This document shows positions 2,446 to 60,960 of a stretch of 64,000 nt of DNA, piece after piece. The position numbers and the translations under genes were made by a program. The DNA comes from Eledone cirrhosa (Eukaryota). Position 1 is the first letter of the stretch. The number at the start of each line of letters is the position of its first letter. The notes beneath the pieces are model-generated. The model did no database searches. It saw only the letters and a program-made list of their open reading frames with translations, and had not been told where the DNA came from. The stretch spans positions 316,696,001 through 316,760,000 of the forward strand of contig OZ024740.1 of assembly GCA_964016885.1 (NCBI GenBank), written 5' to 3'.

Positions 2446-2913
2446 GTATGTACAATAATGTACATAAAAATTATAGTACACTTTCAATAAAATAACTCAA
2501 GGATCTCATCAAACTTTTTACTAAGTCAAAAATATTGTATGTTAAAGAAAATGGAAAAAAGAATAGCTAGATGTTCTTGTATTTTCCAAGGAAGTAGCAA
2601 TGTAAGTAAAATGGAATGGATTTAACTAGAGCTGGAACTGTTGAGCTCTTGGCATGCCAAAGGCTTCTATTGTCCAGAGCATCAATAATTCAAATTAAAA
2701 TATATATATATTTATATATAGAGAGAGCCATTTTTCGTTTAAGAAACACAATATTTTGTAAATATAAAGCATATAACATTCAGGAAAAAGTATATATTTT
2801 AAAAACACTTCCACCTTAAATTATGTACTTTTTCCTAAATATAATATGCTTTATATATATGTACAAAATACTATGTGATTCTCTCTCTCACTATATATAT
2901 ATATATATATATA

Positions 2914-3506
2914 TGAATGTATGTATAGTATATTTGGCAATATACCGTATGTTTAATTAAAAACATTTTGAAGACCTTGCGCTATCATTTTAAAGTAGTG
3001 ACTATGTCACTTACTTCTTTTTTTGGCAAAGGGAAGAGAAGCTTCTCTCCCTTCCTTTGACAAAAAAAGAAGTGACATAGTCACTACTTTAAAATGATAG
3101 CGCAAGGTCTTCAAAATGTTTTTAATTAAACATACGGTATATTGCCAAATATACTATACATACATCGCTATTTAAGAGCACCAATCCTAATTTTTTATTT
3201 TTGCTGGACAGGCAATCGCTCTGTATAATCAGTTCGTGATTATTACTGGAATTCTATAAGAATCCAGCCTCTATAATTTTTGGCAAATGCAGAGAGTACG
3301 TTGCTCTGAGGAACACCAACAGTGTGAAACAGAATCTGTCAGCTTCTCTCCCTTCCTTTGCCAAAAAAAGAAGTGACATAGTCACTTCTTTAAAATGATA
3401 GTGCAAGGTTTTCAAAATGTTTTTAATTAAATATACGGTATATTGCCAAATATACTATACATACATTCATATATACATCGCTATTTCAGAGCACCAATCC
3501 TAATTT
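2914..3506 (+). mobile_element. Non-coding HHR-containing retroelement (retrozyme / mini-PLE-like)
   Basis: Inverted arm 2914-3043, unit 3040-3340, direct repeat 3341-3506; HHR at 3303-3343; flanked by (TA)n. Confidence 0.8.
3303..3343 (+). ncRNA. Type I hammerhead ribozyme
   Basis: GCT-CTGAGGA-ACAC(caaca)GTGT-GAAA-CAGA(a)TCTG-TC^AGC; canonical core, GUC cleavage after 3340. Confidence 0.9.
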
Positions 3507-3607
3507 ATATATATATATGTATGTATGTATGTAAAAGATAAACAGAAATAACAACAGAATCGGTACAGGAATATATTAGGTTAACGCTTGAAATAGCAGG
3601 CAGTGGG

Positions 3608-3643
3608 TCTTAACGTTTCGGATGCTAGTCCTTCATCAGAAGA
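3608..3643 (-). ncRNA. Minimal type I hammerhead ribozyme
   Basis: TCTT-CTGATGA-aGGA(ctagca)TCC-GAAACGTT^AAGA; palindromic AACGTT replaces stem III. Confidence 0.7.
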
Positions 3644-3731
3644 AAGAATGAGAAATAAGATAGATTGAAAGAACGGAATTGGAAAAAAATGTCTTTAGAT
3701 AAAAATAGCAGGTCCATTCATGTTGGCATCT

Positions 3732-3768
<37 letters not shown>

Positions 3769-3793
3769 TGTAATAAACAACATAAGATAATTA

Positions 3794-3854
3794 TTTCATT
3801 TACCAGTGGTTTCTTGAAAGCAAACAAAATTTGCTTTCAGTCATCAGAATGAAA
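3794..3854 (-). ncRNA. Type I hammerhead ribozyme, family C
   Basis: TTTCATT-CTGATGA-cTGAAAGCAAA..TTTGCTTTCAa-GAAA-CCA(c)TGG-TA^AATGAAA. Confidence 0.85.
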
Positions 3855-3989
3855 ACATCCTGGTGGATTTATTGACAGTGGATTTTAAAAACAAAAATAT
3901 AATCTATATGAAAGGAAGAAGGAAAGGAAAAAGAATAAATATAAAAGTAGATAAACACACCTGCACACACACACACACACATATATACA

Positions 3990-4410
3990 CAGACACACAT
4001 ATATACACACGTACATACACACATATACACGCATACATACGCACACACATATATAGATATATGTACACACACCTACATACGCACACACAATTAATTATAA
4101 GAAAAAATAATAATAATAAATAAAAATAAAAAACAATGGACAACCATATAATGCAATAGGCCGTCACATAAAATAAAAATAAAAATTATTATAAAGTTGA
4201 CAGCGATACAGGAATAATTTTTATTTTCTTAAGTCGTATATTTTTATTTTTATGTGACAGCCTATTACATTATATGGTTGCCCATTGTTTTTTATTTTTA
4301 TTTTTTATTATTATTTTTTCTTATAATTAATTGTGTGTGTGCGTATGTAGGTGTGTGTACATATATCTATATATGTGTGTGCGTATGTATGCGTGTATAT
4401 ACGTGTGTAT
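3990..4410. repeat. Long inverted repeat
   Basis: ~3990-4180 is the reverse complement of ~4240-4410. Confidence 0.8.
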
Positions 4411-4695
4411 GTACGTGTGTATATATGTATGATTATGTGTGTGTGTGTATATATATATATATATAAATGAAAAGTATAGAAAGTATTGTAAGAAGAAGCC
4501 AACAGTATTCCATAATATATAATACAAATTAAATATAACCTCTACATATATATATATATGTGTAGTGGTTATATTTAATTTGTTGGGATACAACAAGCAA
4601 AATATTTTTATAACTGATATAAAGCACTCAACAAATTATTGGAGTAAAATATACAATATATTAACAAATGGAAACTATATTTACAAAACCATATT

Positions 4696-4761
4696 TATTT
4701 CATTATACTTATTTCAAGGGCCACCAAGGTAAACTATGGTGCGCTTTCATCAGATAAAATA
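4696..4761 (-). ncRNA. Type I hammerhead ribozyme, family D (left arm of fold-back)
   Basis: TATTTTAT-CTGATGA-AAG..CACCA..TGGTG..CTT-GAAA-TAAGTA-TA^ATGAAATA. Confidence 0.75.
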
Positions 4762-6510: not shown

Positions 6511-6778
6511 TGTATAATAAACAATACAATATAATTACCTCATTACCAGAGGTTTCCCAAATAAGACGAATACGAAAGAAACGTCCTCATTCGTTCGTCT
6601 GACGAGGCAATATAAAACAGTGAAATATTTGGAAAGTCTCCTCAAGAAATGCAAAAAAAAAAATTATATATATATATAAAGACATATAAAATATATAAAA
6701 AATATAAGGAAATATAGTTAGGTGTGTGTATATGTATGTATATACACTCACAAATGTGCATATGTATGTATGTATGTA

Positions 6779-6940
6779 TGTACAAATGCGTGTGTATGGT
6801 GAACATGTGTGCGTAAGTACATATATGAGGGCAAGTATATTTGTGTATATGTAACCACAAATATGTACATATACACAAATATACTTGCCCTCATATATGT
6901 ACTTACGCACACATTTTCACCATACACGCGCATTTGTACA
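6779..6940. repeat. ~75-bp-arm hairpin abutting the RTE 3' end
   Basis: tgtacaaatgcg...tgtgtatatgta / tacatatacaca...cgcatttgtaca. Confidence 0.85.
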
Positions 6941-8925
6941 TCGTTTAACGTCCATGTTCCACGCTTGCATGGGTTTGGACGGGAGCTTTCCCACTTGAGG
7001 CAAGAGTGGTTGTCTTGCTCGCATAGGACTGTCTGGCGGGTCTTCTCTATTACTGAGTACCGCCAAAGGTCTCGGTCCAGTGACATTGTCTTGGAGAGGT
7101 GTAAGCGTGTGAGGTCGGAATTTATCAGCTCGTCCCATGTTTTCCTGGGTCTGCCTATTCCGTGGCTACCATCTATCTTTATTGCCCTGCACTTTGCTAT
7201 ACAGCTGTCGTCTTTCATGCGCATCACCTGACCATACCAACGTAGCCTTCTCTCGAGTAAACAACATCTGATCCCTCTTATTTCTAATTTTTTCCTTAGT
7301 TCGTTTATGCTTTGCCGTTCACGTATATTACTATTACACATCCAGCGGAGCATGCAAGCTTCGTTTCTCTCTAGTCTGCGTATATCCTCTGCACACAATG
7401 CCCAGGTCTCATTGCCATGCAACATTGCTGTTCGTATGCAGGCATCATACAACCTGCCTTTCATTTTTAGGGAGAAACCTTTAGCGGCTAATAGTGGTAT
7501 AAGCTCCCTGAACTTTTTCTATCCAGTTCTGACTCTAGCTACTGTACTTTCAGAGCACCCTCCCCCACTGCTGATTTTGTCACCCAGGTAACGGAAGCTG
7601 TCCACTATTTCTATAGAACCCTCTGCGCAGTTGAAAGAGCTAGTATTTTGTGGGCACTTGCTGCTACTTATTGCACCAGAGCACCGGCCACATGTAAAAT
7701 CTGTGTTCTTAGTTAGCTTACCTGTGATCCCACTACATCTTTTATGCACCCATACTTTGCATTTGGGACATAAAATGGAGTTTCTACCTACGCCTTTCCT
7801 ACACACTGAGCATGGCCATTTCCCGGAAGGGACCGGCGCCTTATTTTCTTTCCTACAAACTAGAACTTTAGTCTTAGCCAGGTTAATTTTAAGGCCTTTT
7901 GATTCTAGGCCGTGCTTCCATGTTTGGAATTTCTTCTCTAGCTCGCCCATTGATTCAGCTATGAGCGTTAGGTCATCTGCGTATAGGAGTTCCCATGGGC
8001 AGCCGGTCTTGAACTCCTCTGTTATAGCCTGAAGAGCAATAATAAATAGTAGGGGGCTAAGAACAGAGCCCTGATGGACACCAACTTTTACGCTAAACTC
8101 TTCACTATATTCGTTGTTAATTATAACCTTGCTCACTATTTCTTTATACATGGCTTGTATAGCTCTCACAAGCCATTCGTCAACACCTAGTTTTCTAAGA
8201 GCCCACCAGATAATGGAACGGGGGACTCTGTCGAAGGTTTTCTCCAAGTCGACAAAGGCTAAGTATAGGGGTTTACTTTTAGCTAGGTACTTCTCCTGTA
8301 GTTGTCGTACAATGAAAAGAGCGTCTGTGGTACTTTTGCCTGACACAAACCCGAACTGCATTTCATCTAGATCGATTCTCTCTCTGATTAGTTGCACTAT
8401 TACTTTTTCCATGACCTTCATGACCTGGTCGATTAATTTAATGCCTCTATAGTTACTCCTATCTAGGGCGTCTCCTTTACCCTTGTAACAGTTAATGATG
8501 ATGCTGCTACTGCTACGCCAGTCCTTCGGAACAAACCCATTCTGTATGACTTGGTTTACTATCCGGGTGACCATGGTGTGTCCCACCGTTCCAGATGCCT
8601 TCAGCATCTCAGTAACTATTTCCGAAGGCCCAGGCGCCTTACCCGTCTTCATATCTTTGATTGCCTTACTTATTATACTACCTTCAACTAACACTGCTGG
8701 TCCCTCTATTGGATCGATCTGGGGGAGACTATCTTTCTCCCATTTATTCTCCTCATTTAGTAGCCTCTCGTAGTGACACTTCCAAGCGACCTTCTTATCA
8801 GCGTCAGTGATGGCGAGTACACCATCATCATTTAGTACACACTTCTCCCCAATAATATCACGGTTTTCCTTGACACATTGCCTAGCAATCCTGAACACCT
8901 CACGTTTTTGGTCCTCGCGTTGTAG
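6939..8925 (-). mobile_element. 5'-truncated RTE-clade LINE: reverse transcriptase with PHD-like Cys finger
   Basis: ORFs 7519-8898 and 6748-7464 are in one frame, split by a single TAG; motifs NYRGIKL, QFGF, FVDLEKTFD, GVHQGSVLSP, LYADD, CSVC..CPKC..WVHKRC..CGRC, RRLRWYG, GRPRKTW. Confidence 0.95.
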
Positions 8926-8973
8926 ATGTGTGTGTATATATATATATATATATTTATTAAAATAACAGATTAA

Positions 8974-9024
8974 AGTTTAAGCAAAGAATCGCTGCTTTCA
9001 CCCTTAACGGGATCTTCTGAAACT
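8974..9024 (-). ncRNA. Hammerhead-like motif, core variant CAGAAGA (left arm of hairpin 8952-9105)
   Basis: AGTTT-CAGAAGA-tCCC(gttaa)GGGt-GAAA-GCA..TGC-TT^AAACT. Confidence 0.55.
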
Positions 9025-10030: not shown

Positions 10031-10091
10031 TTTTATTCTGATGACTGAAAGCAAATTTTGTTTGCTTTCAAGAAACCACTGGTAAATGAAA
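10031..10091 (+). ncRNA. Type I hammerhead ribozyme, family C (within element ~9910-10189)
   Basis: Core and stems nearly identical to 3794-3854. Confidence 0.85.
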
Positions 10092-20087: not shown

Positions 20088-20883
20088 TTTGTTGTTGTTA
20101 TTTACTTTTCTGATATATATATACACATACACACGAGGGTAGGCTGACTATGAAGGTGTGATGCTAGTGCTGTGAAATCTTGCATGCATTAATTTCACTC
20201 TTAATGAATGCATTGTTTCTTTCCACGGACTATGTTGAAAAATAAACCTCATTTAGTCATTCCATAAGTATCTTGGTCAGTCTATGAATTTTTCAGCCGA
20301 TAATCGTATATATATATTTTTTCATTCATATATATTTTTATTTGTTTGACCCGAATTTTCTTGGTCGTATTTTTTGTGGGTGTGGTGTGGTGTGGTGTGG
20401 TGTGCGGTGGCCGCGGGCGGGGAAGTGCTCGGCCGTGGGGGGCTCTCTGGTGATGCCTGGCGGCGGGGTGAGCGCCAGTTTGGGCAGTGCCTAGCAACGG
20501 GGTGAACGCGAGTTTGGGCAGTACCTAGCAACGGGGTGAACGCCAGTTTGGGCATCTCCCGGTGTTAGGCAGTTGGACGCAGGCGGGCGAGGAGTAACCA
20601 GCAGTGGAGATAGCGGCGCCTATGAAGATCGAAACGATATGGCACTGTTTGTACCAATGTAGAAACTACCAGTCTAGGAGAATGGACATATAAGAACTGG
20701 TCTTTAAACTACCATGAAAAGCGGTGAGTGAGATGGCTTTTTCCAACAGCAAGCTATTTCGGCAACTGGAAACGGATCTGATTGGGAAGGGAAAAAGGAA
20801 GAAAGGGCTGCTGGAGGGACAGAGAGGAGTCTGTTATTTTTTTTGTGTTTTTTTTTATCACGTACCGCAAGACAAGTCGGAGG

Positions 20884-21645
20884 ATGGCGGCGGGGCTGTA
20901 TGCAAGCGAGGCTGTCGGGGCATTTACCGGGGAGGGTGATGTTGTCGCTTGGCTGCGGAAAGTTCGGCTGGTTGCAAGCTTGCAGAAGATAGAGGGTGTG
21001 GCTGGCCTCGTGGCACTGTGCCTCGAGGGGGACACGTTGGTGCTCTTCCTTGGGTTGGGTGAGCACAGCCAGAGAGATGCGCAAAGGATTGAGAGGCGCC
21101 TGATAAATGCATTCGCCGAGGGACCGTTGGCCGCTTTTGCTAAGCTGGCGAGAATCAGGTGGAATGGTGAGCGCGTCGACATTTTCGCAGCGGAAATACG
21201 GCGGTTGGCCATGTTGGCTGGTTATCAGGTGGAATGCGAACGCACGGTGCGGTTGGCGTTCATCAATGGATTTCCAGACGACATGGCGGTGAAACTGCAG
21301 CAAGTCCCGGGTTATAAAGAGATGGAAATGCGTTCACTGGTAGAACAAGCCCGGATCATAGCAGAAGATGCCAAAAAGAGTGTTGCGGCGATGGCAACTA
21401 CGGAGGCTCAGGACACCTGGCAGCGAAATGGTGAAAGGGAGGCAACCTCGGCACGCGGTCGCCCGCGAACGTTTAGAGGTCGCTGTTTTCGGTGCCAGGG
21501 CCCGCACATGACTGGAGACTGTGGAGAGTCGGGGCCGGAGATAATTTGCTACCGGTGTAAGCGACCAGGCCACATCGCTACTAACTGCGACCAGGGAAAC
21601 GATCCAAGGGGAACTACTGCGCCGGTAGTTGCCCCTTACGAGTAG
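20884..21645 (+). CDS. gag: Gag with two CCHC zinc knuckles
   Basis: CFRCQGPHMTGDC and CYRCKRPGHIATNC. Confidence 0.85.
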   Translation: MAAGLYASEAVGAFTGEGDVVAWLRKVRLVASLQKIEGVAGLVALCLEGDTLVLFLGLGEHSQRDAQRIERRLINAFAEGPLAAFAKLARIRWNGERVDIFAAEIRRLAMLAGYQVECERTVRLAFINGFPDDMAVKLQQVPGYKEMEMRSLVEQARIIAEDAKKSVAAMATTEAQDTWQRNGEREATSARGRPRTFRGRCFRCQGPHMTGDCGESGPEIICYRCKRPGHIATNCDQGNDPRGTTAPVVAPYE

Positions 21646-21651
21646 CGGCGC
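21594..21651 (+). promoter_or_regulatory. -1 ribosomal frameshift signal (slippery heptamer plus pseudoknot)
   Basis: G_GGA_AAC in gag frame; stem AAGGGGAACTAC/GTAGTTgCCCCTT; loop GCGCCG pairs with CGGCGC at 21646-21651; pol is in the -1 frame and open from the slip site. Confidence 0.85.
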
Positions 21652-24394
21652 TGCCCGTGGTGGAAGTCTTCGTGAGGGGAAAGCCACAGCGAGCCCTCGT
21701 GGACACGGGCTGTACAACGACAGTGGTGACCGCGGGGGTGGCGCAGAGGTGGAGAGGGAAAAGCAGTGTAAGGGCAGTCGACGGCAAGAAAATTGAATGC
21801 CGAGGTCGCAGCGAGATGGAAATAGAGGTACGGGGAAGGAGAATAAGGCTTTCTGCCATCGTAGTAGACAGCGTGGTGGATGGGATCGGCGTGGTTATAG
21901 GCATGGACGCAATTGGCCGTCTAGGAGGCGTCACGGTGAACAACGTCGGTGTGTCGTTTGGCGCCGCTGCATCGGTATGCGCTGTGAGTGCACGTCATGA
22001 GAACCAGAAGGCCCACGAGGAGAAATACCCCGCTTACACTGTGCAGGACAAAGACTTCAAGGCCGTGTTTGATGGGCAGCGATGGGTTGTTGAGTGGTAC
22101 TGGAAGGGAGAACCACCAACACTGAAGACCAAAGTGGGCTGCTATCAACACACATTGAAGGGAAACGTTAGGAGCGAGTTCGAGCGAAAAGTAGAGAGAT
22201 GGATCGAAGAGGGCATACTGCTTCCCTGGAAGGAGGAGGTGAAATGCGGAGTATTGCCGTTAATGGCGGTGGTGCAACCCACGAAGAGCAAGGTGAGGCC
22301 GGTGCTGGACTATCGGGAGCTGAACGAGCACGTGTCGTGCCACACGGGTGGCGAGGTGACGGATGTCTGTGGGGAAACCCTGCGTGAGTGGAGACGCATG
22401 ACGGGGGGTTCAGCGATCGTAGATCTAAAGTCGGCGTACTTGCAGTTGCATATAGACGAGAAGCTCTGGAGGTATCAGCTGGTCAGGTATAAGGGCCGGA
22501 CATATTGCCTGACCAGGCTCGGTTTCGGGCTGAGCTCCACACCGAAGATCATGGCGGCGGTCCTCAACACCGTTCTGGGGAAGGCCGACAAGATGAAGAG
22601 GGCTACTAACTCCTATATTGACGACATCCTAGTGGACGAGTCTGTGGTGTCGGCGGCGGAGGTCGCGAGCCATTTGCAGGGGTATGGACTGGTTGCGAAG
22701 CCGTCAGAAGCATTGGAAGGAGGAGCCGCGTTGGGACTTAGGCTACGGCGAGACAGGACGGGCGTTTTGGTATTCCAGAGGAGAAACGAAGTTCCGGAAC
22801 TGGCCCCAAGTATGAGTAGGCGGGAGCTTTTCTCGGTGTGTGGAAAGCTGGTGGGTCACTACCCGATCGCTGGGTGGCTCCGGACGGCATGCAGCTATGT
22901 CAAGAGACGAGCGGGAGGAGTGACTTGGAGTGACAGAGTGGGAGAGAGGACGGTGGCCATGATGCAGGAGATCGTGGGGAGGGTGAAGGCAGACGACCCA
23001 GTGTGGGGACGCTGGTATGTTCCCAAATCACAGAGCGGGACCGTATGGTGCGATGCCAGCAGCATAGCGCTGGGTGTCACGTTGGAGATAGGAGGTGTTG
23101 AGGTCGAGGATGCAGCCTGGCTTAGAAAGAAGGACGACTGCAACCACATCAATGTGGCCGAACTGGACGCGGTGTTGAGAAGGGTGAACCTCGCCCTGCG
23201 GTGGGGGCTGCGCACCATCGAGATACGCACCGACTCGGCTACTGTACTCGGATGGGTGAGATCAGTGCTCACCAGTGAGAAGAGAGTGCGAACGAGAGGC
23301 GCGGTGGAGATGCTGATAAAGCGCCGCCTGGGAACTTTAGGAGAGCTGGCCACCGAGTTCGACCTGAGGCTGAGCGTAGTTTTCGTGCCCTCGGAGAAAA
23401 ATAGGGCGGACATCTTAACTAGGGTGAAGAAAGCCTGGATGGAAGCGCCGGAGGAGGTGGAGGATGAGATAGCTGCCGTGTGTCGGCTGACTGAGTCGGA
23501 TCTGAAAGGGTTGCATGACATGCACCACATGGGAGTGGATAGGAGCCTGTTCCTGGCCAGGAGAATCGACTCGGACGTGAACAGACACAGTGTTCAAAGA
23601 GTGGTTAGAGGCTGCGTCCGACGTCAGTCCATTGATCCCGCCCCGGGTGTACACGAAACGGGAAGCCTCCCGGTGGATCGCGACTGGAAGCGATTAGCGG
23701 TGGATGTGACGCACTACCGGCAGGGAACGTACCTCTCGATGGTCGACTGTGGACCAGGACGGATGGCGATATGGAGGGAGATGGAGACTGGAACGGCGAG
23801 GAGATCGTGCGGACGTTGAGAGAGGTGTTCTTGGAGCGGGGCCCTGTGGACGAACTGCTGATGGACAACAGCTCAGCGTTCCGCTCGGAAGCACTGAGGG
23901 AGATGCTCGATGGATGGGAGGTGGACCGTTTCTTCAGAGCGGCGCACAGGCCGAGCGGGAATGGAATCGTGGAGCGACACCACCGGACGATCAAGGCAAT
24001 GGCGGAGCGGGGCCATATCTCACCAATGGAGGCAGTGTTCTGGTGCAGCATGTCCCCTCGGGTAGGACAGGTCGAGGAATCGGTGCCACACAGAGCAGTT
24101 TTCAAATACGAGTGGCGGCACCCTTGCACGCCACCGCGGCGGCCAGTGGGGAGAGAGAGTGCATTCGTGCAGGTGGGCGAGGAGGTCTGGGTTGAGCCTC
24201 CAGATGCACGTTGCGCATCTCGGTGGGGAAGGGGAACGGTGGCGGTCGTAAATTCAAAGAACAATGTGTCCGTGGATGGGGTACCACGTCATGTCCTGGA
24301 TGTGGGAAGAATCGCTGTGTCGACGGGCTCCGAGGGGGGGGGGGGAAGCCCAAGGTTCTGCCCCAATGCTGCAGAGATCGCAGCGAGGTCGTAG
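21600..24394 (+). CDS. pol: Pol (protease, RT, RNase H, integrase), frameshift near 23790
   Basis: LVDTGC, VDLKSAYLQ, YIDD, WCDAS, LAVDVT, LMDN, NGIVER. Confidence 0.9.
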
Positions 24395-25118: not shown

Positions 25119-25179
25119 TTTCATTTACCAGTGGTTTCTTAAAAGCAAAAAAATGTTGCTTTCAATCATCAGAATGAAA
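25119..25179 (-). ncRNA. Type I hammerhead ribozyme, family C (left arm of fold-back ~25089-25335)
   Basis: CTGATGA..GAAA-CCACTGG-TA^AATGAAA. Confidence 0.85.
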
Positions 25180-25243
25180 AAATTCTGGTGTATTTATTGG
25201 CGTTGGTTTTTAAAATCCAATGCCAATAAATACACCAGGATTT

Positions 25244-25304
25244 TTTCATTCTGATGATTGAAAGCAAAAATTTTTTGCTTTTAAGAAACCACTGGTAAAT
25301 GAAA
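25244..25304 (+). ncRNA. Type I hammerhead ribozyme, family C (right arm)
   Basis: TTTCATT-CTGATGA-TTGAAAGCAAAA..TTTTGCTTTTAA-GAAA-CCACTGG-TA^AATGAAA. Confidence 0.85.
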
Positions 25305-25917: not shown

Positions 25918-25986
25918 TATTTTATTATGCGCATTTCAAAAACAAATATCATCATGCAATAATATTTGTTTTCATCAGATAAAATA
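25918..25986 (-). ncRNA. Type I hammerhead ribozyme, family E
   Basis: TATTTTAT-CTGATGA-AAACAAATAT..ATATTTGTTT-tt-GAAA-TGCGCA-TA^ATAAAATA; palindromic stem III. Confidence 0.85.
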
Positions 25987-31272: not shown

Positions 31273-34200
31273 TCACTGTAGAATTTCTTTGTAGACACAG
31301 TTGTCAACAAACAGACCCCTTTCATTTAATATTTTTATATTTTCTTTTTTTGTAACTCGTGATAATGCAACATACATCTGACCATATGAGAAGAATTGTG
31401 TTGGTAGATATATACCTATCTTTTCAAATGTCTGCCCTTGTGCCTTGTTGCATGTAAGGGCAAAGGCTGGTTTGACAGGAAATTGCTTGCGAGTAAAGGT
31501 GAAAGGGAACTGAAGCTCTTGAGATACATGTGGTATCTCTGGGATTAGCAACCTTGTTCCAGCATTGGGACCCAATGCCACTTCAGCTTCAATTACACGA
31601 TTATGTAAACTGATGGTGATGTAGCATGTACCATTGCAATGTCCGTTTAGAGGATCCAGATTTCTCAGAAGCATGATGCAACTGCCCTTCTTCAGTTTAA
31701 CCCTTTAGCATTTAAACTGGCCAGAATTCTTTCACCTCTTTCTGTTCCAATTGGCTGTAACTGGCCGTTTATACTGTTGTTAAGATATTGTTCTCAAAAT
31801 AAATAATATCCAAATCTCATAGATTTGATATTTTGGGAGATAATTATATGAGATAAAGTCTTTACCATGAAAATGTAATAGTAAATATAAAATAATGTAA
31901 ATGCTAAAGGGTTAAGTATGTGTGTTGGGGAGCCTGATGGCGTAAGTTTGTTGATGAACTCAATTGGATATTGCAGTTCATTATCTACTGTATCAGAGCT
32001 TCTGTAGATTATTTCATGACCAGGGAACTTGTTGACCATGAACTCATTCACCAATCTTGCTGCATCATTTGTTGGAGTGATAATGGCTCTATTTGCAAGC
32101 CATAGTGGTTTTGTGTAATTTCCTGGAAGATTTTTATACACAAAATCACACAGTCCAGACACATTACCATATTCCAGACAAAGTTCATTTGGCAGAAGAA
32201 TTGTGAATGCACCTACAGTTGGAATGTTACCATTTCCCATATCAAGAAAATAGTTTGCAAACTGCCTTTCATCAGAATCCTCTGCATTAATTAACTGTTG
32301 ATTGGTTGTCATCTCCATGGTTTCCACATAGTCCCAAAGGTAGGATCTCTTGATGGTTGCCTCAACTATTTGTGGTCTAACACCATGACATACAACTGGA
32401 AGAATTTGCTTCTAGTCACCAGATAGTAATACTGTTAGACCACCAAATGGCTTTTTGCAATCTCGAACATCTTTGAAGCTCCTGTCAAGGCATTCAAAGA
32501 TATGCTTATGTCCCATACCTATCTCATCAATGATTAGCAGGTCAGCTTGCTGCATAAGTTTACCTGTGTCATCCCTCTTTGTGAAGAAGCAAGTTGATTC
32601 AGCAGTCACATTGAGAGGAATCTTGCACTTGGAATGAAGAGTTCTACCTTTGTAAAGCAAAGTGGCTGCTATTCCAGATATGTGCAAGTGCAATTTTTAT
32701 TTTTAGATCGCAGATAATCCAACAGGATGTTTATGACATAGGTCTTTCCTGTACCTGCATTCAAGCAGAAATTCTGCCTTCATTTTCATTTACAGAGGTG
32801 ATTATTTTGTGAAAAATAACCAGTTGCTCAGGATTCAATGTTGGCAGAAGTTCATTTAATTTTGCTTGCAGTTGGTGTGTATTGAAATCAGTTTCTACCA
32901 TAAGAACCCTGTTGATTTCTGGTATGGCAACAATAGTTGGGTCTGGCTGAGGAAGTCCATAGTTGGCATGAATGTCCAAGCCATCATGTTGAAGTCTTTG
33001 TTGGATCTTCTGTAGAACAATCTGCACGGTTTGCATGGACATGACTTGCTCATGACGTTCATGCATGATATCCTCTGCAAGACAATTCATCCATTTCTCC
33101 CAGAACTGCAGAGGGTCATTCGGCATGCTGTACAATAAAATGGTGCAGACGATCTCTTGCAGCTGAGGACCAAGCGTAATGGATGAGGCCTCTTCCATAG
33201 CTTTATCTTTTTCTCCATCTTCATCTAACAGACCAAGTTTCCTGCATGCTTCTTGGAATGTTGGAAATTCAACTCCTTCAATTGTCCTCAAATCTTTGTA
33301 TGAAGTTGACCTAGCTTTGTGATGTAGGATCATCCTGAGGTAATATAATTCAGATTGATGTCTACTGAGAGATACTGTTGGAATGCATCATAAATTGTTG
33401 ATCACCATCCAGATGTCCCTTTTTTTCTTCTTTACCACTTTTTGTTTGTCCAAGTGAAATATTTAGGAATATCAATACATTATATGTTTTGTACCAGTGG
33501 GTCTCTAATATTCAGTTGAAAATATTCCGTCAACTTAGTCATTGGCTGTTCCCTAGAAACAATGCTTTCTTCTTGCCCTCGCTCATACACGACCATTTGT
33601 TCCCCAGGTAAATGGCAAGGCAACTTTTCAACTGGCGGTTTTTGATGATGTAATGGAAATTTATAGATTCTCCAGAATGCTTCACTGGTTGAGATGTACC
33701 ATGCATTGATATAGGTCTCAATCTCATTTTGGACATGGACACAATTTCCTTGATCATCCTTAATAGTGAAAGTGATCTTGTCTGATCCTTTTGTGATGTA
33801 CTTATATAAGTACTTAACAGCCTTGACACTGTGGACAACCTCACAATTGATGTGGCACTGATATCTCAATGAGAGGAAAGGGTTGTATGGAACAATCCAA
33901 TGATTATCAACAGTAAATTCTTTACCTTTAAGTTGGATTGTATGGGTGTGACCACCATGCTGTCTATCCCTTCTTCTATACTCCGGAAAGGAATTTTCGG
34001 CAACAAATGTGGTTTGTCTGAATGCTTTGAGATAACTTTTTGAGCAATGGTGTTGTTGTCCTAGCACTTCCATACATGAGCACATCATATTAGCTTGTCC
34101 ACATGGGCCATGAATGTTGTAGGATGTGATGATCTTATGCAGAATTGGATTGGTCTCTTTATCAGGAATCTCACAGTACACTACATGATCAATGGCATCA

Positions 34201-34452
34201 GCAGTTTTGGGCTTGCTATCTTCAGCCATTATCAGCAGAATATGAGCATGAGTGAGGCCTCGTTTTCTGCCACTCTATTGTAGCAGAATGAGCCACAACT
34301 TTTCCTAGGACATATTTTTTCAGTATGTCATCCATGAGGCTGTCATACTTGATCTTGAAAACTCTTGCATAAATATCAGGACGGTCTCTAGGTTCTTCAC
34401 CAGGGTGCAAACTATTTTTTATTTCATCCCAGTTACGGTTAGTTGTTACCAT
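31273..34452 (-). mobile_element. Decayed autonomous Helitron (Rep plus Pif1 helicase pseudogene)
   Basis: EWQKRGLTHAH (frameshifted), HGPCG, WIVPYNPFL, KYLYKYITKG, AGTGKT, IIDE, MLLRNL, QFPVKPAFALTCNKAQGQT, YVALSR. Confidence 0.92.
31701..31911. mobile_element. piggyBac-like MITE inserted in the Helitron helicase
   Basis: TTAA TSD; TIR ccctttagcattta/taaatgctaaaggg; removal restores HIL-KLKKGSCIMLLRNL. Confidence 0.9.
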
Positions 34453-40575: not shown

Positions 40576-40612
40576 GATATACATTACATTATATAATACA
40601 TATATATATATA

Positions 40613-42605
40613 TTGCATTATAACCAGCGGACTAACGCACAGAATAATTGTAACTGTAGAGCTAATAGAACCTGCCCTTTAGATAAAAAATGCCTAACCA
40701 AGGATGTCATATACTCATGCACAGTCACGACTAATAACTCTTCAGAAACCTATGTAGGCTCCACTTCTAACTGCTTCAAAATCAGATATAACTCGCACAT
40801 CCACTCGTTCAAAAAGCACAGCCTAGCCAACTCCACCTCACTTTCTAGCTACATACACTATCTAAAATCTAAAAATAAACCATACACACTCAAATGGGAA
40901 GTGATAGGCAGCGCGACCTCGTACAAACCACCTAATAAATTCTGTAACCTCTGTATACTAGAGACACACAATATTATCTTCTCCAACCGTAACCTACTTA
41001 ACAAAAATCTGAGGTGTTTGCAACTTGCCAGCACCGCCTCAGACATTCCTTCCAAAACTTTAAGCCCTATATATAGCAATGTCGGACTGGAACCCAACAC
41101 CACATCTAGCATCAAACACCAGAGACACACCCTATACTACATACCCAACACTAGCTGATCCATTATAACACAAACAACGACATCCCTCTGGAACCCTTCG
41201 CAGGGAAAATACCCATTTATACCTCTACGGCAGGTGTGACAACATCCACCCACTTGGACGGCACTACACCGCTCTAAGGGTAATTTGAGCATGAATTGAT
41301 CGGTTGGATGGTGTTGGGCAGAGGAAACACCTTCCTTAGACAGATGTAAAATGATTTAATCGAGTAGCGCTGTTGACCAGTAGGACCGGGCTGCGGAGCG
41401 CAGTGAGTGAATGCAATGCAACTGCCGTGCGGGTTGTACGTATATGGATGATCTGACGGTCAGAGAGGGGTCGCGATGACTGCGGATTGACCTTTGGCCT
41501 GCCTGGGGACGATTATCTTTCGACATCCAATGTAGCAAGTGATGACCCAGATCTTACCAGAGATCATTGGGTCCTGAAGCAATCCTGCAATCACCGCGCC
41601 TGGCCATATGAGCAGACTACAACCACAGAGATCATTAATTTAGAATCCTCGCTCATCATCTATAATTTCCATTTGTAGCACCTTATGATGGGTTAATCCA
41701 CCTTAATAATAATATGATCACCTTCAATATAATTTAGTTAAACTACTCTATAGTTAGTACACTTTATGCTTTAAAAGTCTCTCTTGGAAGGTGCACCTCA
41801 CCATAGAATTTAGGGTCTATATTGGGACACATTTTAATGGCTAGATATGGAAACCCCAGAGTTACCTCCCCGCATGCATTAACTCCCCTTAGCCACACAC
41901 ACACTTCCGGTATTCAATGGCGTTTCTCGAAACGTAACAACCTCCTGTATCGAACTAAAGAACACCAGACTACGACCTCTAACTGGATTGTCGTGGATTA
42001 TGTGAAAGGCATATAATCGAAATATACACTCCCTTGACCATGAAAATGCCGAAGTACATGAACTACTTGACATCCCTGCGCTGTGCATCTCCAATACGTA
42101 TAACACTTTTAATGCTTGCACTATCTTTAATGCTTATAATATTTCTCCACACACAGACTACATCAATCATATAAAGACTTTGCCACCAGATCTACCAACC
42201 TAACACTCTTATTTACCTACCTAAGTGCCTCTACCACACATATCTCTCTGCCACACTATATAAACAAGACGCACATGCGTGCCACACATATAACATTTGC
42301 ACTATATAACCACTTATCTTCATGTTGTACTTTAACCTATATCTTTGATTTTTGATTGTACCTATTAATATAAATGTAATCTCGAAGTGTGTACTGCCAC
42401 TCTAAATTCTGTAATGAATGTTGACCCACAATGTTTGAATATGTATCAATGTTTGAATATGTATTGGTATGTCTCTCGGCTGAAAAGGAGGTCATATAAC
42501 TGTCCATGCATTAATAAATTGCTCCGAAGAATCCAAACCTCGGTTTGGAGGAAACAGCTGTAAGCACAATAATGTTTTGAACAGTTCTTTGATTCTTATA
42601 TTTCA
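40613..42605 (+). mobile_element. 5'-truncated Penelope-like element, tandem copy 2
   Basis: ORF 40613-41158 is a GIY-YIG endonuclease; near-identical to copy 1, period ~3481. Confidence 0.88.
42520..42566 (+). ncRNA. Minimal type I hammerhead (copy 2)
   Basis: Identical to 39039-39085. Confidence 0.75.
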
Positions 42606-45420: not shown

Positions 45421-48400
45421 AATATTCCATATATAGTAAAAGTGATTGTCACAAGGATTGGTCAAAAGTTTGTTGTTGAGACACATAATTCTATCATGGC
45501 ATTTTGTGGAAGGAAGGGGTAGCTGAACTTGCCAGTAGAAGAAAGAGGGAGAGGGAGTGGAGAAAACCCAGTCGTGCGTTGAAAGTGACAACTACAGCAG
45601 AATCCTAAGGATAAGAGGTCAAGAGGGGGGGGGGTCGAAACAATAAGTAGATCTATATGGAGTAAATCTATATAGAAAAATAAGAATGTTAAAAATATAA
45701 GAAAACAATTTCTGGTTACTATTCCCCTACCACAATCATCAAATCTCTCACTGGTACTGCTAAACTATAGAAAAGTTTAATAAGTGGGGCGGGATACTAA
45801 ATACGAGATTGTAGTGAAAGAATTTTATGAGTTAGTAGTAATCGGCCTAATCTATCTTACAATGACAGGTCAACAAGTAGGGGGCCAAAATACTAAAAAA
45901 AAACTAATACGAAATAATAATTCAGAGTCCCGAAACTAATACGAAATATTAATTCAGAATCCCGAAAATGAATACTAATACGATATATAAGAGTACCGCA
46001 ACAATACATAAATTCTAATGTAAACTACATAAATGCTCGTACGATATATATGAAAAATTTAATATTCAGAATCTCCCCCCCCCCCCCCCCAATAAAGTAT
46101 AAATACTGATATACGAGAAACTATAGCAGAGATACCACTAAGAAATCTAGAAATCACAGAAATGGGGCAGCAATCAGATAAGAAAGCAAGTATCTGGGGT
46201 CTAGCACATCTGCTATAAAAAGTGGAGTCGGCCAATTCTATCATAGAATAGGGGGTGGGGTGGGGTACTGAGGCTACAGAGGACCGAAGGGCTGCCTCGG
46301 GGTGGGCGAGAAGGTGAAAAGAACGACGACAAAGGAGAACTGGAGTGGAAGGACTAGGAAGGGATGGGGGGAAGAAGGAAATATAGAGGAAACGATAAAA
46401 AATATATAAGAAAATCTCACGTCTACCTTTGTAAGCATGGGTTACCCATTACAAAGTCGGCAAGTGGGGTGTTACAGCCCCTGTCTACCCCCCCCCCCCT
46501 TCCCGGGTCATTATGGGGTTTGAGGGCGAGGTAAGTCCTACGCAATCTGTGTTTGCATGCAGTTACCAGTTCGTCTTTCTTGTTTCGGAGTTGGTCCGTC
46601 GAAAACAACATTTGTAATGTTTCCTCCGAGCATAAGTTACACGGACGGCGTCCTCCCGTGTAAGAGTTGGCTCTGGACAGTAAGCTCCAAGTGAGATTAT
46701 AGATTTTATTGTTATCTTTGAGGTCCCAGATGTGGCCCGAAAGTGTAGTGGTGTGACGCCGGGCCGGGTTTCGGAAAGTATGTCTGTGTTGGTATAGCCG
46801 GGTCTTGAAGTCACAAGCGGTTAATCCTATATAAGCTTTGTTGGAGGTATCTGTCCTCACGTTGCACTGGTAGATCACATTACGATCTCTGCATCTGTTG
46901 TCGAGGGGCAAATGGATCCATCAGGACAGTTGCACCTCCTGGTCGGCTCTCCACTGCTATTTAGGTTATTTCTTCCATAGGTGTTGAGTGTTAGAGGAGA
47001 CGATGTTTGTGCAAAGTTAGGTGTGGTGCTGTAGGAGAGTTTGATGGTATTTTTGTTGATTATGTTGTGGTAGCGGTGTTGTAGTGGGAAGTGTTTTTCG
47101 ATGAGCCTAAAGAAGATTTTCCTGATAGGTGTTGTCACCTCGGCGTTGTGGGGAGGATTGAACCATGTTACGTTGCGTGAGCGGTGGTGTCGCCTGCTGG
47201 TTCCGCTAATGGAAGCTGGACAGTAGGATATTTCCTCCAGGAAGCCACTCCGCCTGAGGGCCTGGTTGTAATAAGGCGCATGTTCCTCGAATATCTGCTC
47301 ATTAGCGGACAAACGAGATATGCGGAGGGAGATGTTTTTAACCAGGTTATTGGTGATGTTTCTAGGATGGTTTGACCGGCGGTGGGTGTAGTGCAGGTTA
47401 TCGTTTGGTTTCCTGTATGGGTAGTACAGATCATTATCGAGGTCAAGGGTAACGTCCAGGAAGTTTACTCGGGTTAGGGACGTTTGTAGGGTTATTTTAA
47501 ATCCCCAGTCGCGAAAGAAGCTGATTAATTGTTTACGGACCCGGTCTGTACTACCGGGGTTGTACCCTTTAAGGGTAAGGAGCCCATCATCACGGTACAA
47601 TCCACCGCCGAATGCAGAAAACATATCGGTGAGTTTAACTAGTAGGAATAATCCTATAAGATCTGTGACCTCAGCCGAATCCGTCGCGCCCATACTGACG
47701 TCGAAGGGGGAGTCGGGAGCTCTCTTTATCCATTTGGAGTTGTTGAAAAGTAGGACTGTCTTCCTGGCGTGGAGGATGATATTTCTTTCCTGGTCGGTGA
47801 TGGGCGCAAGTGTCTCGGCAAAGTCCAAGGCGGCCGTAAGGAACGGTAAGGTAATTGAAGCATAGTAACTTTCTATGTCAAACTGGATGAATTTTGTGTC
47901 TCGTTTGTCCTCCATATTGCTGAACCATGAGATTACTTCCTGGGTGTTGACCCATAGGCTAAGTCTGGCGTTTTGCTTAACTTTTGGTATAACGCGGTCT
48001 AGGATTTTTTTTACTGATTTTCCCTATGTCGGACTTCGTTGGGTTTATAAGCCTGATAGATGGTTTACGGTCGAAATCGGATTTGTGGTCCTTCAGTGTG
48101 AAGTAGGGAGTGCGTGCGTCTAGGGGTTCCGTGCGGTCGGCGACCCCGAGGCTGGAGGTAATTTATTGTCCATCTCGATTTATGTCCTCGATGCATCAGT
48201 GGTTAGCCTTTTTATAGGTGGAGTTTAGGCTGCTCCTGATCAGTGTGTGGTATCTGTCGGGGTTGACGAAGTAGAGGTTACCAGTTTTATCCGAGTGCAC
48301 CATGATGTCATTGGTGTTATCATACTCTGTTAAGTTGCTACGGAGTTTTTGTAGGAATCTGTTGTCTGGGTTTGAATTTAATTCTCTTGACCAGTTGGAA

Positions 48401-58967: not shown

Positions 58968-59041
<74 letters not shown>

Positions 59042-59044
<3 letters not shown>

Positions 59045-60960
59045 AATGAATAATAACAGGTAGACAGCATAAAAAGGTAATTTATTCCGTGTGCTTACAA
59101 ATGTTTCCACGGTGGTACTACAACCTAGTTATGCTATGTGCAAATTTACAACTATTTGCAGAACTCAAATATCCAATGCTGTGACCACTGTATCCTCAGA
59201 GCAGAATGGTAAAATGTACAATGTAAATACCCTTAAGTAGGGTTGTTGGGGAAGTTAGAGTAGAAAAGGAAGAGAGAAGTAGGGGAGAGGGAGAGAGAGA
59301 GAAAGATATGCAGGGGTTGGAGAAGTAGGAGAGAGTGGTTTGTAGATATCTTAATCAAAATGTTATGGTAGGGGTTTTATTATACTGGTTACTTTTGGAG
59401 AGATTCGTTGATAGTTAAGGTCGGAATTATTTATTGCCCCAGAGGGCAGGTTCATAGATGTGGAGAGGGAGGTAGGCCAAAGGCGAGAGAGAGAGAGTGT
59501 AATGGATGTAGAGAGAGAGGTAGAGAGGGGACAGACGAAGTTTATGTGGTGAGTGAACTTTGGGTTTGTAGTAGTAATCTGCGAATTGCACTGAGTTACC
59601 ATTTATAGTGATAAGCAGTGTATTGTCTTGTAGTGTGGGGGAAGAGAAGGTGGTTAGCTAGAAAGCGATGTTATAGTTACGGGTTCGAATGTTAAGTTAT
59701 TTTATAGTGAGAGAATTTAGCTTTTAGTTTGTGGTTGCAGTATAATGATCGTTCAATTCTATCGTTAAGTAGTTTGTTTTGGGATTTAAATATGTAAAAG
59801 AGTTCAAGGTTACATAACCTGCAGTACTTCAATCCACTCCGATATGCACTTGCGCTGGAAAGTATATCCCATTTTAAGGTGAACTGTTGGTTGCGTTCAC
59901 GGAGTTGCCAGGTCTTGTTGGCGAGCGTGGTCACAAAACGGTGATTAGGATGTTTGATTGAGAATCGATGACGGTACCAGCGAGATTTAAACGAGGTGGT
60001 GGTAGATCCGATATAATACCATTTCTGGTCGTTCGATTCAACCGTGCATTGGTAAACAATGTTGGACTTTAGGCATTCATTCTTCAATGGACATCTTTCA
60101 GGTAGATGGCAGTTACATTCTTTGTTGTGGGTAGCGTGTATACCATGGATAGGTTGTGATAGCAGTGCAGGTGGATTGTGTAATACCCGTCTCCCATTTA
60201 GTGGTTGGGAGGCAGATATTACGTTCTGCCCGTCTGTTACTAAAATATTTTGTTTTGTAGAGTTGTTTAATTGCCTTAAGTTAAGTTTTTTTTATGTATG
60301 CTTCAAGGTTTGGTGCCGTGGAGTATGATAGTCTAATAGTTTTAGAGTTCAGAATTTTGCTGTATTTATGGGAACTAGGGAAATGTTTGTTGATTAACTT
60401 AAAGAATGAAAGAGATAGTTTTGTACTAATCGAGGCATTAAAAATAGGATTGTACCAGATATACTTTCTACAACGTGATTTATTTGGTGGTGATTTTCTA
60501 TTATTAGTATGTCTGGTAGTACTGTGTGTGTGCGCTTGTATTTTAGTCCTCCGGTTACGTATTCCTTGGTTTCGTGTAGAGCTATGTGTGTTATGGAAAT
60601 TCCTATCAATGTATTCTATTGTATCCCGGTGGTCGGCATTCCTTAATGCATTATTGTAGTATTCAGCGTGTTCACTAAAAATATCTGAGTTAGACGATAG
60701 GCGAGAGATTCTAAGAGAAATACTCCGGGGAACTGATTTGATCATGGAGAGTGGGTGGTTAGAGTTAAAGTTAATATACGTAAGGTTCTCATTTATCTTG
60801 TGGAAGGGTCGTATCTGTCCGGTATTTAGATTAAGAATAACGACCCTTCCACAAATGAGAACCTTACGTATATTAACTTTAACTCAAACCACCCACTCTC
60901 CATGATCAAATCAGTTCCCCGGAGTATTTCTCTTAGAATCTCTCGCCTATCGTCTAACTC
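59042..60960 (-). mobile_element. 5'-truncated Penelope-like element with 5' fold-back
   Basis: RT thumb ISLRISRLSS..IWYNP; GIY-YIG IVYQC..YYIGST..CRLC; hairpin 60688-60960. Confidence 0.9.
59092..59203 (-). ncRNA. Type I hammerhead with extended stem II
   Basis: TGCT-CTGAGGA-TACAGTGGT..ACCACCGTG-GAAAC-ATTT-GTA^AGCA. Confidence 0.8.

What the first reader, a model, noticed from the sequence alone, without database searches (positions are those of the whole stretch)
2914..3506. Retrozyme-like 301-nt unit delimited exactly by the HHR cleavage site, with a 5' fold-back arm
The canonical HHR at 3303-3343 should cut after GUC3340, releasing AGCTTCTCTCCCTTCC... The same sequence starts at 3040, so 3040-3340 is a precise cleavage-to-cleavage monomer followed by a partial second copy (3341-3506). 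Upstream, 2914-3043 is the reverse complement of the monomer start, pivoting on the AGCT at 3040-3043. The unit has no ORF and has (TA)n on both sides. This fits reverse transcription of a self-cleaved, possibly circular, RNA for about 1.5 rounds, with an inverted 5' extension as in Penelope insertions (inference).
Basis: partly seen in the sequence, partly recalled or inferred. Interest (0 to 1): 0.88.

Follow-up and report, generated by a model that had tools for sequence, protein, structure and literature searches.

The report
Penelope-copied hammerhead retrozyme insertion
This is one old copy of a small non-coding repeat with a predicted self-cutting RNA motif, scattered over thousands of places in this animal genome; the copies end at two fixed internal sites in TA repeats, likely because a Penelope-type jumping-gene enzyme copied them, and only rarely end at the predicted cut site as this copy does.

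Summary
The anatomy is real: inverted arm 2914-3043, unit 3040-3340 ending in a type I hammerhead, partial second unit to 3504, (TA)n on both sides. It belongs to a non-coding family (consensus unit 317 nt; 1,498 exact hits of one 30-mer). Inverted pairs carry one E1 and one E2 end (43 of 48) and share a subfamily (43 of 44). This is the Penelope-like element (PLE) tail-and-inversion footprint, best explained by two target-primed cDNAs. A 310-nt sister family has the same two ends with a different hammerhead. An intact Hydra-type PLE with the same anatomy shares 15 of 16 nt at its long end: a candidate driver only. Cleavage, expression and circles are untested. It is a new member of the animal non-LTR retrozymes. 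This scan noted the same footprint earlier on other repeat families of this genome.

The parts
2892..2913 (.). (TA)n tract, left half of the target
2914..3043 (-). Inverted arm: unit positions 1 to about 133, ending at the short fixed end E1
3040..3043 (.). AGCT palindrome shared by both arms; first four bases after the predicted cut site
3040..3340 (+). One full unit (301 nt here, family consensus 317 nt), no ORF
3097..3222 (+). Module about 80% identical to the 310-nt sister family; hairpins around both fixed ends; likely enzyme-binding and start region (inferred)
3277..3366 (+). Type I hammerhead (core 3303-3343, predicted cut after 3340) with extended stem I
3341..3504 (+). Partial second unit ending at the long fixed end E2
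3470..3504 (+). 35-nt PLE-type tail between E1 and E2, present at this end only
3507..3518 (.). (TA)n tract, right half of the target, shared with a neighbouring repeat

Best explanation
This is a copy of a non-coding hammerhead repeat family whose insertions end at two fixed internal sites in (TA)n, likely written into DNA by a Penelope-like (probably Hydra-clade) protein that would prime one cDNA from each side of a cut TA tract on the same RNA. Shown: high copy number, two fixed ends 35 nt apart, (TA)n flanks, one E1 and one E2 end per inverted pair, read-through of the cut site, conserved ribozyme fold. Inferred: transcription; ribozyme cutting; protein binding to the hairpin module; starts at E1 and E2; joining of the two cDNA ends head to head. 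The template usually has the cut-site junction intact: a ligated circle (about 55%) or an uncut multi-unit transcript (about 45%). In this copy both cDNAs stop at unit position 1, most simply because both ran off a ribozyme-made 5' end, an uncommon event. With one ribozyme only, this copy could not release a monomer by itself.
For: Position-ordered sample of 87 loci: 130 of 159 arms end at E1 (70) or E2 (60); (TA)3+ follows 106 of these 130 against 4 of 29 other ends. 44 of 87 loci are inverted. Pairs with both ends classifiable: 26 of 30, and 17 of 18 in the score-selected set, are E1+E2 (pooled p 1.4e-8). Arms share a subfamily in 43 of 44 typed pairs and share rare variants (37 of 325 against 58 of 4,724 between loci). 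PLE insertions show inverted 5' copies and a 30-40 bp tail at one end (PMC8557442), and the tail lies between two internal RT start sites in vitro, with both strands cut and extended (PMC11167929). Hammerhead helices: 95.8% of cells paired, 16 double changes, 0 of 500 shuffles as high. Intact 785-aa frames with Hydra-type RWK and DKT motifs, hammerhead-bearing pLTRs and two fixed TA-joined ends (16 short, 9 long of 25) exist in the same genome.
Against: No RNA, cleavage or protein data. The driver is not identified: BLAST and a covariance model found no family module in the 3' ends of two autonomous PLE families, only neighbouring family copies. The 15-of-16-nt match to L239 was picked after seeing it, and that family's two ends are about 145 nt apart, not 35. 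16 of 46 and 13 of 31 junctions could not be classified. Same-locus segments differ by about 7%, so shared variants could also come from gene conversion or from copying of one arm. L189 has an inverted duplication of flank DNA, which fits snap-back copying there. The hammerhead alignment was selected for intact cores and is dominated by related copies.
Confidence: 0.8

Rival explanations
1. One reading: a cut-to-cut monomer is copied about 1.5 rounds and the cDNA folds back at the cut site.
For: This copy and L189 pivot exactly on AGCT; L185 and L191 have one arm ending there with a nearby partner. Second-round stops within about 4 nt of the cut site: 4 of 21 including this copy (p 0.007, post hoc; 3 of 20 without it).
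Against: 76 of 77 arms pass the first cut site (the one apparent stop, L073, is an internal deletion). Genome-wide, 5-6 of 880 against 3 of 1,498 and about 11 of an estimated 1,550 at controls, p 0.08-0.8. 73 of 77 junctions are asymmetric. A circle has no end at the cut site.
Confidence: 0.07
2. One cDNA is made from E2; the inverted arm arises by self-priming or template switching (DNA or antisense RNA) and ends at E1 by annealing of a TA-like stretch to the target.
For: Self-priming was proposed for PLE inverted repeats (PMC3846280). E1 lies in a TA-like stretch. 34 of 77 junctions show overlap. L189 duplicates its flank.
Against: E1 also ends many solo arms; the sister family ends at homologous sites; in vitro a PLE starts at both tail ends. 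Here the left arm has four bases that both right-hand copies lack, which is weak because that indel recurs.
Confidence: 0.1
3. The copies are truncated terminal repeats (pLTRs) of an autonomous PLE, not an independent non-autonomous element.
For: Most PLE insertions are 5'-truncated and retrozymes resemble pLTRs (preprint 10.64898/2026.07.22.740005).
Against: Arms continue upstream into the same 317-nt unit; no shared non-family sequence upstream of the hammerhead among 143 loci apart from duplicated loci and a nested insert; no ORF.
Confidence: 0.03

Closest known systems
Metazoan non-LTR retrozymes (Cervera and de la Pena 2020, PMC7229834; Li, Clavereau and Pollet 2026, 10.64898/2026.07.22.740005)
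   Same: Type I hammerhead in a 150-450 bp low-GC non-coding unit, many copies, partial or full tandems; PLE mobilisation proposed (2020) and supported by pLTR similarity in Xenopus (2026).
   Different: Copies here are mostly dispersed and short (longest arm 607 nt in 87 loci; two hammerheads in one arm at 1 locus). The two fixed ends and paired inversions were not in the parts I read. RNA circles and cleavage are untested here.
EN+ Penelope-like elements, Hydra clade (Craig et al. 2021, PMC8557442; Arkhipova et al. 2013, PMC3846280)
   Same: Partial tandems, inverted 5' copy, 30-40 bp tail at one end, (TA)n targets, hammerheads.
   Different: No ORF; the whole unit is about the size of a pLTR; no homologous autonomous pLTR found.
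Poseidon PAc of Anolis (Frangieh et al. 2024, PMC11167929)
   Same: Two internal start sites downstream of a hammerhead, AT-rich target, both strands extended.
   Different: PAc is autonomous, and its ribozyme is dispensable in vitro with uncut RNA the main template; here the starts are inferred from genomic ends only.

Membership tests
Metazoan non-LTR retrozyme | Type I hammerhead motif in the unit | tested here: met
   76 of 113 hammerhead 3' halves have an intact CUGANGA upstream
Metazoan non-LTR retrozyme | Unit of 150-450 bp, low GC, non-coding, no LTR | tested here: met
   317 nt consensus, longest ATG ORF 28 aa
Metazoan non-LTR retrozyme | Many genomic copies | tested here: met
   1,498 exact 30-mer hits; roughly 5,000 segments by scaling
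Metazoan non-LTR retrozyme | Tandems with two complete hammerheads | tested here: met
   In the family (L121, L030), rarely: 1 of 87 loci. Not met by the window copy itself.
Metazoan non-LTR retrozyme | Self-cleavage; linear and circular RNA in tissue | not testable with these tools
   Needs bench work or raw RNA reads
Non-autonomous PLE-mobilised element | Two fixed 3' ends 30-40 nt apart (tail) | tested here: met
   E1 about c133, E2 about c168
Non-autonomous PLE-mobilised element | Variable 5' truncation and inverted 5' copy with the tail at one end | tested here: met
   44 of 87 loci inverted; 43 of 48 classifiable pairs E1+E2
Non-autonomous PLE-mobilised element | Sequence shared with the pLTR of an autonomous partner | tested here: inconclusive
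   Two families checked; only a 15-of-16-nt match at the long end and a 12-nt hammerhead-core match with L236/L239
Autonomous PLE | RT and GIY-YIG ORF | tested here: not met

The most novel reading that the evidence does not exclude
This locus is a DNA record of two reverse transcriptases of one Hydra-clade PLE complex running off the same ribozyme-cut RNA end, and the intact L239 family is the driver of a clade of retrozymes that keep one enzyme-start module while their ribozymes change type; that pairs an animal retrozyme with a named, expressible enzyme and lets circle versus linear template be tested in a tube.
Probability: 0.25. Interest if true: 0.72.

Novelty: new member of a known kind. 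Interest (0 to 1): 0.5.

Why it matters
Which enzyme moves animal retrozymes, and from which RNA form, is proposed but not shown in the papers read. The two fixed ends and their pairing tie this family to PLE machinery and give exact predicted start sites, a conserved candidate binding module and an intact candidate protein for an in vitro test. The counts also show that ribozyme-cut ends seldom bound an insertion, which bears on what hammerheads do in the PLE cycle.

Tried and rejected
Rfam: no hit at gathering score. RNA runs: no RNA holder listed. Contigs laid on 2600-3900: no listed piece bridges the pivot. Folding of the window unit: z = -1.75, weak. First structure string was one column off in the outer helix and was redone. 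One motif script printed nothing and was redone. Partner search: 29 and 24 loci of two autonomous PLE families; model hits were neighbouring family copies lying tail to tail in TA tracts (L224, L236 read; L238 not read). Pfam gave little on the PLE frames (GIY-YIG 1e-4 for one of five fragments; nothing significant for the two full frames), so the Hydra label rests on motifs quoted. Apparent cut-site stops at L073, L083, L126, L186 and L192 were internal deletions. The control at position 216 has an estimated denominator and hand-sorted hits (18 hits, about 11 counted). The idea that ribozyme type sets array length was dropped: the two long sister arrays were chosen for length, and L097 and L140 are short. 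My note of a 263-bp sister unit was wrong; it is 310-311 nt. No target-site duplication can be read in TA tracts. Look-up of earlier findings by sequence returned nothing.

Full report
Observation. The window holds, between two TA tracts, an inverted arm (2914-3043), a 301-nt unit (3040-3340) and a partial second unit (3341-3504). The unit ends in a type I hammerhead: three-pair stem I, CUGAGGA core, four-pair stem II, GAAA, four-pair stem III with a three-base loop and a predicted cut after GUC3340, with a longer interrupted stem I outside. The scan found none in 20 shuffles of the window; Rfam gave nothing at gathering score. In 25 aligned copies (of 27 loci listed; two with deletions left out; all selected for an intact core) 95.8% of pair cells are kept, 16 cells show double changes, and no shuffle of 500 reached these two values; relatedness inflates this. 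There is no ORF above 28 aa.

Family. The 3.0-Gb genome gave 2,561 candidates for the unit and 1,498 exact hits of a 30-mer; scaling by 46 exact of 153 segments gives roughly 5,000 segments. Twenty full units give a 317-nt consensus, 91-97% identical to its members. Two subfamilies differ in core (CUGAGGA or CUGAUGA), stem III and often the cut triplet. I studied two samples. One was position-ordered: 96 of the first 100 listed hits on contig C1, 87 loci after three overlapping loci were dropped and close hits merged; it keeps one duplicated pair (L063, L070) and two loci with sister-family arms. The other was score-selected: 56 loci after four duplicates were dropped, the window copy included.

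Ends. In the position-ordered sample 130 of 159 arms end at E1 (70; about position 133, blurred to 125-143 by the TA tract) or E2 (60; 162-173, mostly 168), and 106 of the 130 are followed by TA repeats. The 5' ends are scattered; arms run 27-607 nt. Of the 130, 53 stop before the cut site, 76 pass it and one seems to stop but is an internal deletion. Inversions occur at 44 of 87 loci. Where both outer ends can be classed, 26 of 30 pairs, and 17 of 18 in the second sample, have one E1 and one E2; 29 of 77 junctions could not be classed. The arms share a subfamily in 43 of 44 typed pairs, 32 more being untyped on one or both sides. Rare variants are shared within loci (17 of 164 tandem, 37 of 325 inverted) more than between loci (58 of 4,724), but same-locus segments differ by about 7%, so most copies are old. 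Only 4 of 77 junctions are symmetric.

The cut-site pivot. A genome-wide pattern for arms that begin exactly at position 1 gave 8 hits among 880: five true ends, one ambiguous, two deletions. The pattern catches about a third of random junctions, so about 2% of arms may end there. Controls gave 3 of 1,498 and about 11 of an estimated 1,550; neither differs significantly. L189 is a second exact AGCT pivot, with an inverted duplication of its flank, which fits snap-back. Second-round stops near the cut site number 4 of 21 with this copy, 3 of 20 without (post hoc). So cut RNA ends are probably an occasional stopping point. In this copy the left arm ends at E1 in TA, without flank duplication, which fits a second primed cDNA slightly better than fold-back.

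Mechanism. PLE insertions show partial tandems, an inverted 5' copy and a 30-40 bp tail at one end (PMC8557442, passages; PMC3846280, passages). In vitro the Anolis PLE cuts and extends both strands of AT-rich DNA and starts at two internal sites that bound the tail; uncut RNA was its main template (PMC11167929, parts 1-2 of 4). The family fits this point by point, so I infer two cDNAs primed from the two sides of a cut TA tract, one at E1 and one at E2, joined head to head. Read-through of the cut site needs a ligated circle or an uncut multimer. For a circle: circles are shown for other animal retrozymes (PMC7229834, passages and Discussion), only 1 of 87 loci has two hammerheads in an arm, and sister arrays have 8-14 units per arm. 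For a linear template: short arms, the rare cut-site ends and the in vitro result.

Sister family and candidate driver. Earlier scan notes pointed to 310-nt arrays. They align end to end with this unit, share positions 70-215 at about 80%, keep the hairpins there (2 of 34 pairs with double changes among 10 sequences, weak) and end at the homologous E1 and E2, but their hammerhead has a short palindromic stem III and a GUA triplet, the type described as needing dimers (PMC4209133, passages). Two autonomous PLE families seeded from this window each show two fixed TA-joined ends. One has intact 784-786-aa frames with RWK and DKT motifs, which the paper lists for the Hydra clade, and L239 has a short-end inverted arm at its 5' side and a long end at its 3' side. 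Its long end matches subfamily B at 15 of 16 nt (4 of 20,000 shuffles; post hoc). The other family shares no such motif, and neither holds the module. The driver remains open.

Comparison and novelty. The element meets the sequence criteria of animal non-LTR retrozymes. PLE mobilisation was proposed in 2020 and argued from pLTR similarity in a 2026 preprint (parts 1-3 of 5 read; its supplements were not seen and could hold insertion-end data). Five library searches showed no paper describing paired fixed ends for retrozymes, but most subscription papers are not covered. This scan noted the same footprint on 310-, 422-, 430- and 467-nt families of this genome and a similar verdict on a cut-site inversion elsewhere in this window; those are unchecked notes except where tested above. 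Verdict: real, a new member of a known kind with good genomic evidence for PLE-driven insertion; the exact cut-site boundary is a rare feature of this copy.

Noticed in passing
window 3801-3847 (-), 4704-4753 (-), 10038-10084 (+), 25126-25172 (-), 25251-25297 (+), 25926-25978 (-): Six more hammerhead motifs of other families; the pair at 25126-25297 is inverted.
   Followed up: no
window 3520-3730: A different high-copy repeat shares the right TA tract; also beside L047, L079 and L012. By eye it has a minimal hammerhead-like motif on the minus strand near 3612-3643.
   Followed up: partly
window 59041-60883 (-): Truncated copy of the Hydra-type PLE family with intact relatives (L239, L240, L242); hammerhead-like motif with a long insertion in stem II near 59100-59210.
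   Followed up: partly
window 46423-48023 (-) and 40577-41158 (+): Further PLE-like reading frames; the first family has frames up to about 810 aa and two fixed TA-joined ends.
   Followed up: partly
L224, L236, L238: Family copies lie within about 1.5 kb of the 3' end in 3 of 24 loci of the L239 family against 0 of 29 for the other PLE family; tail to tail in the two read.
   Followed up: partly
L080 and L109: The same foreign repeat, Helitron-like by eye, is inserted at unit position 82-85 in two loci.
   Followed up: no
L056:922-1668: Near-identical inverted arms (99-100%) around about 250 bp of unrelated sequence; one of few young-looking copies.
   Followed up: no
window 3973-4448: 207-bp inverted repeat, 78% complementary.
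   Followed up: no
window 6748-8976, 20782-24394, 31794-34274: Frames that look by eye like a LINE, a Gypsy-type LTR element and a Helitron (labels recalled, not tested).
   Followed up: no
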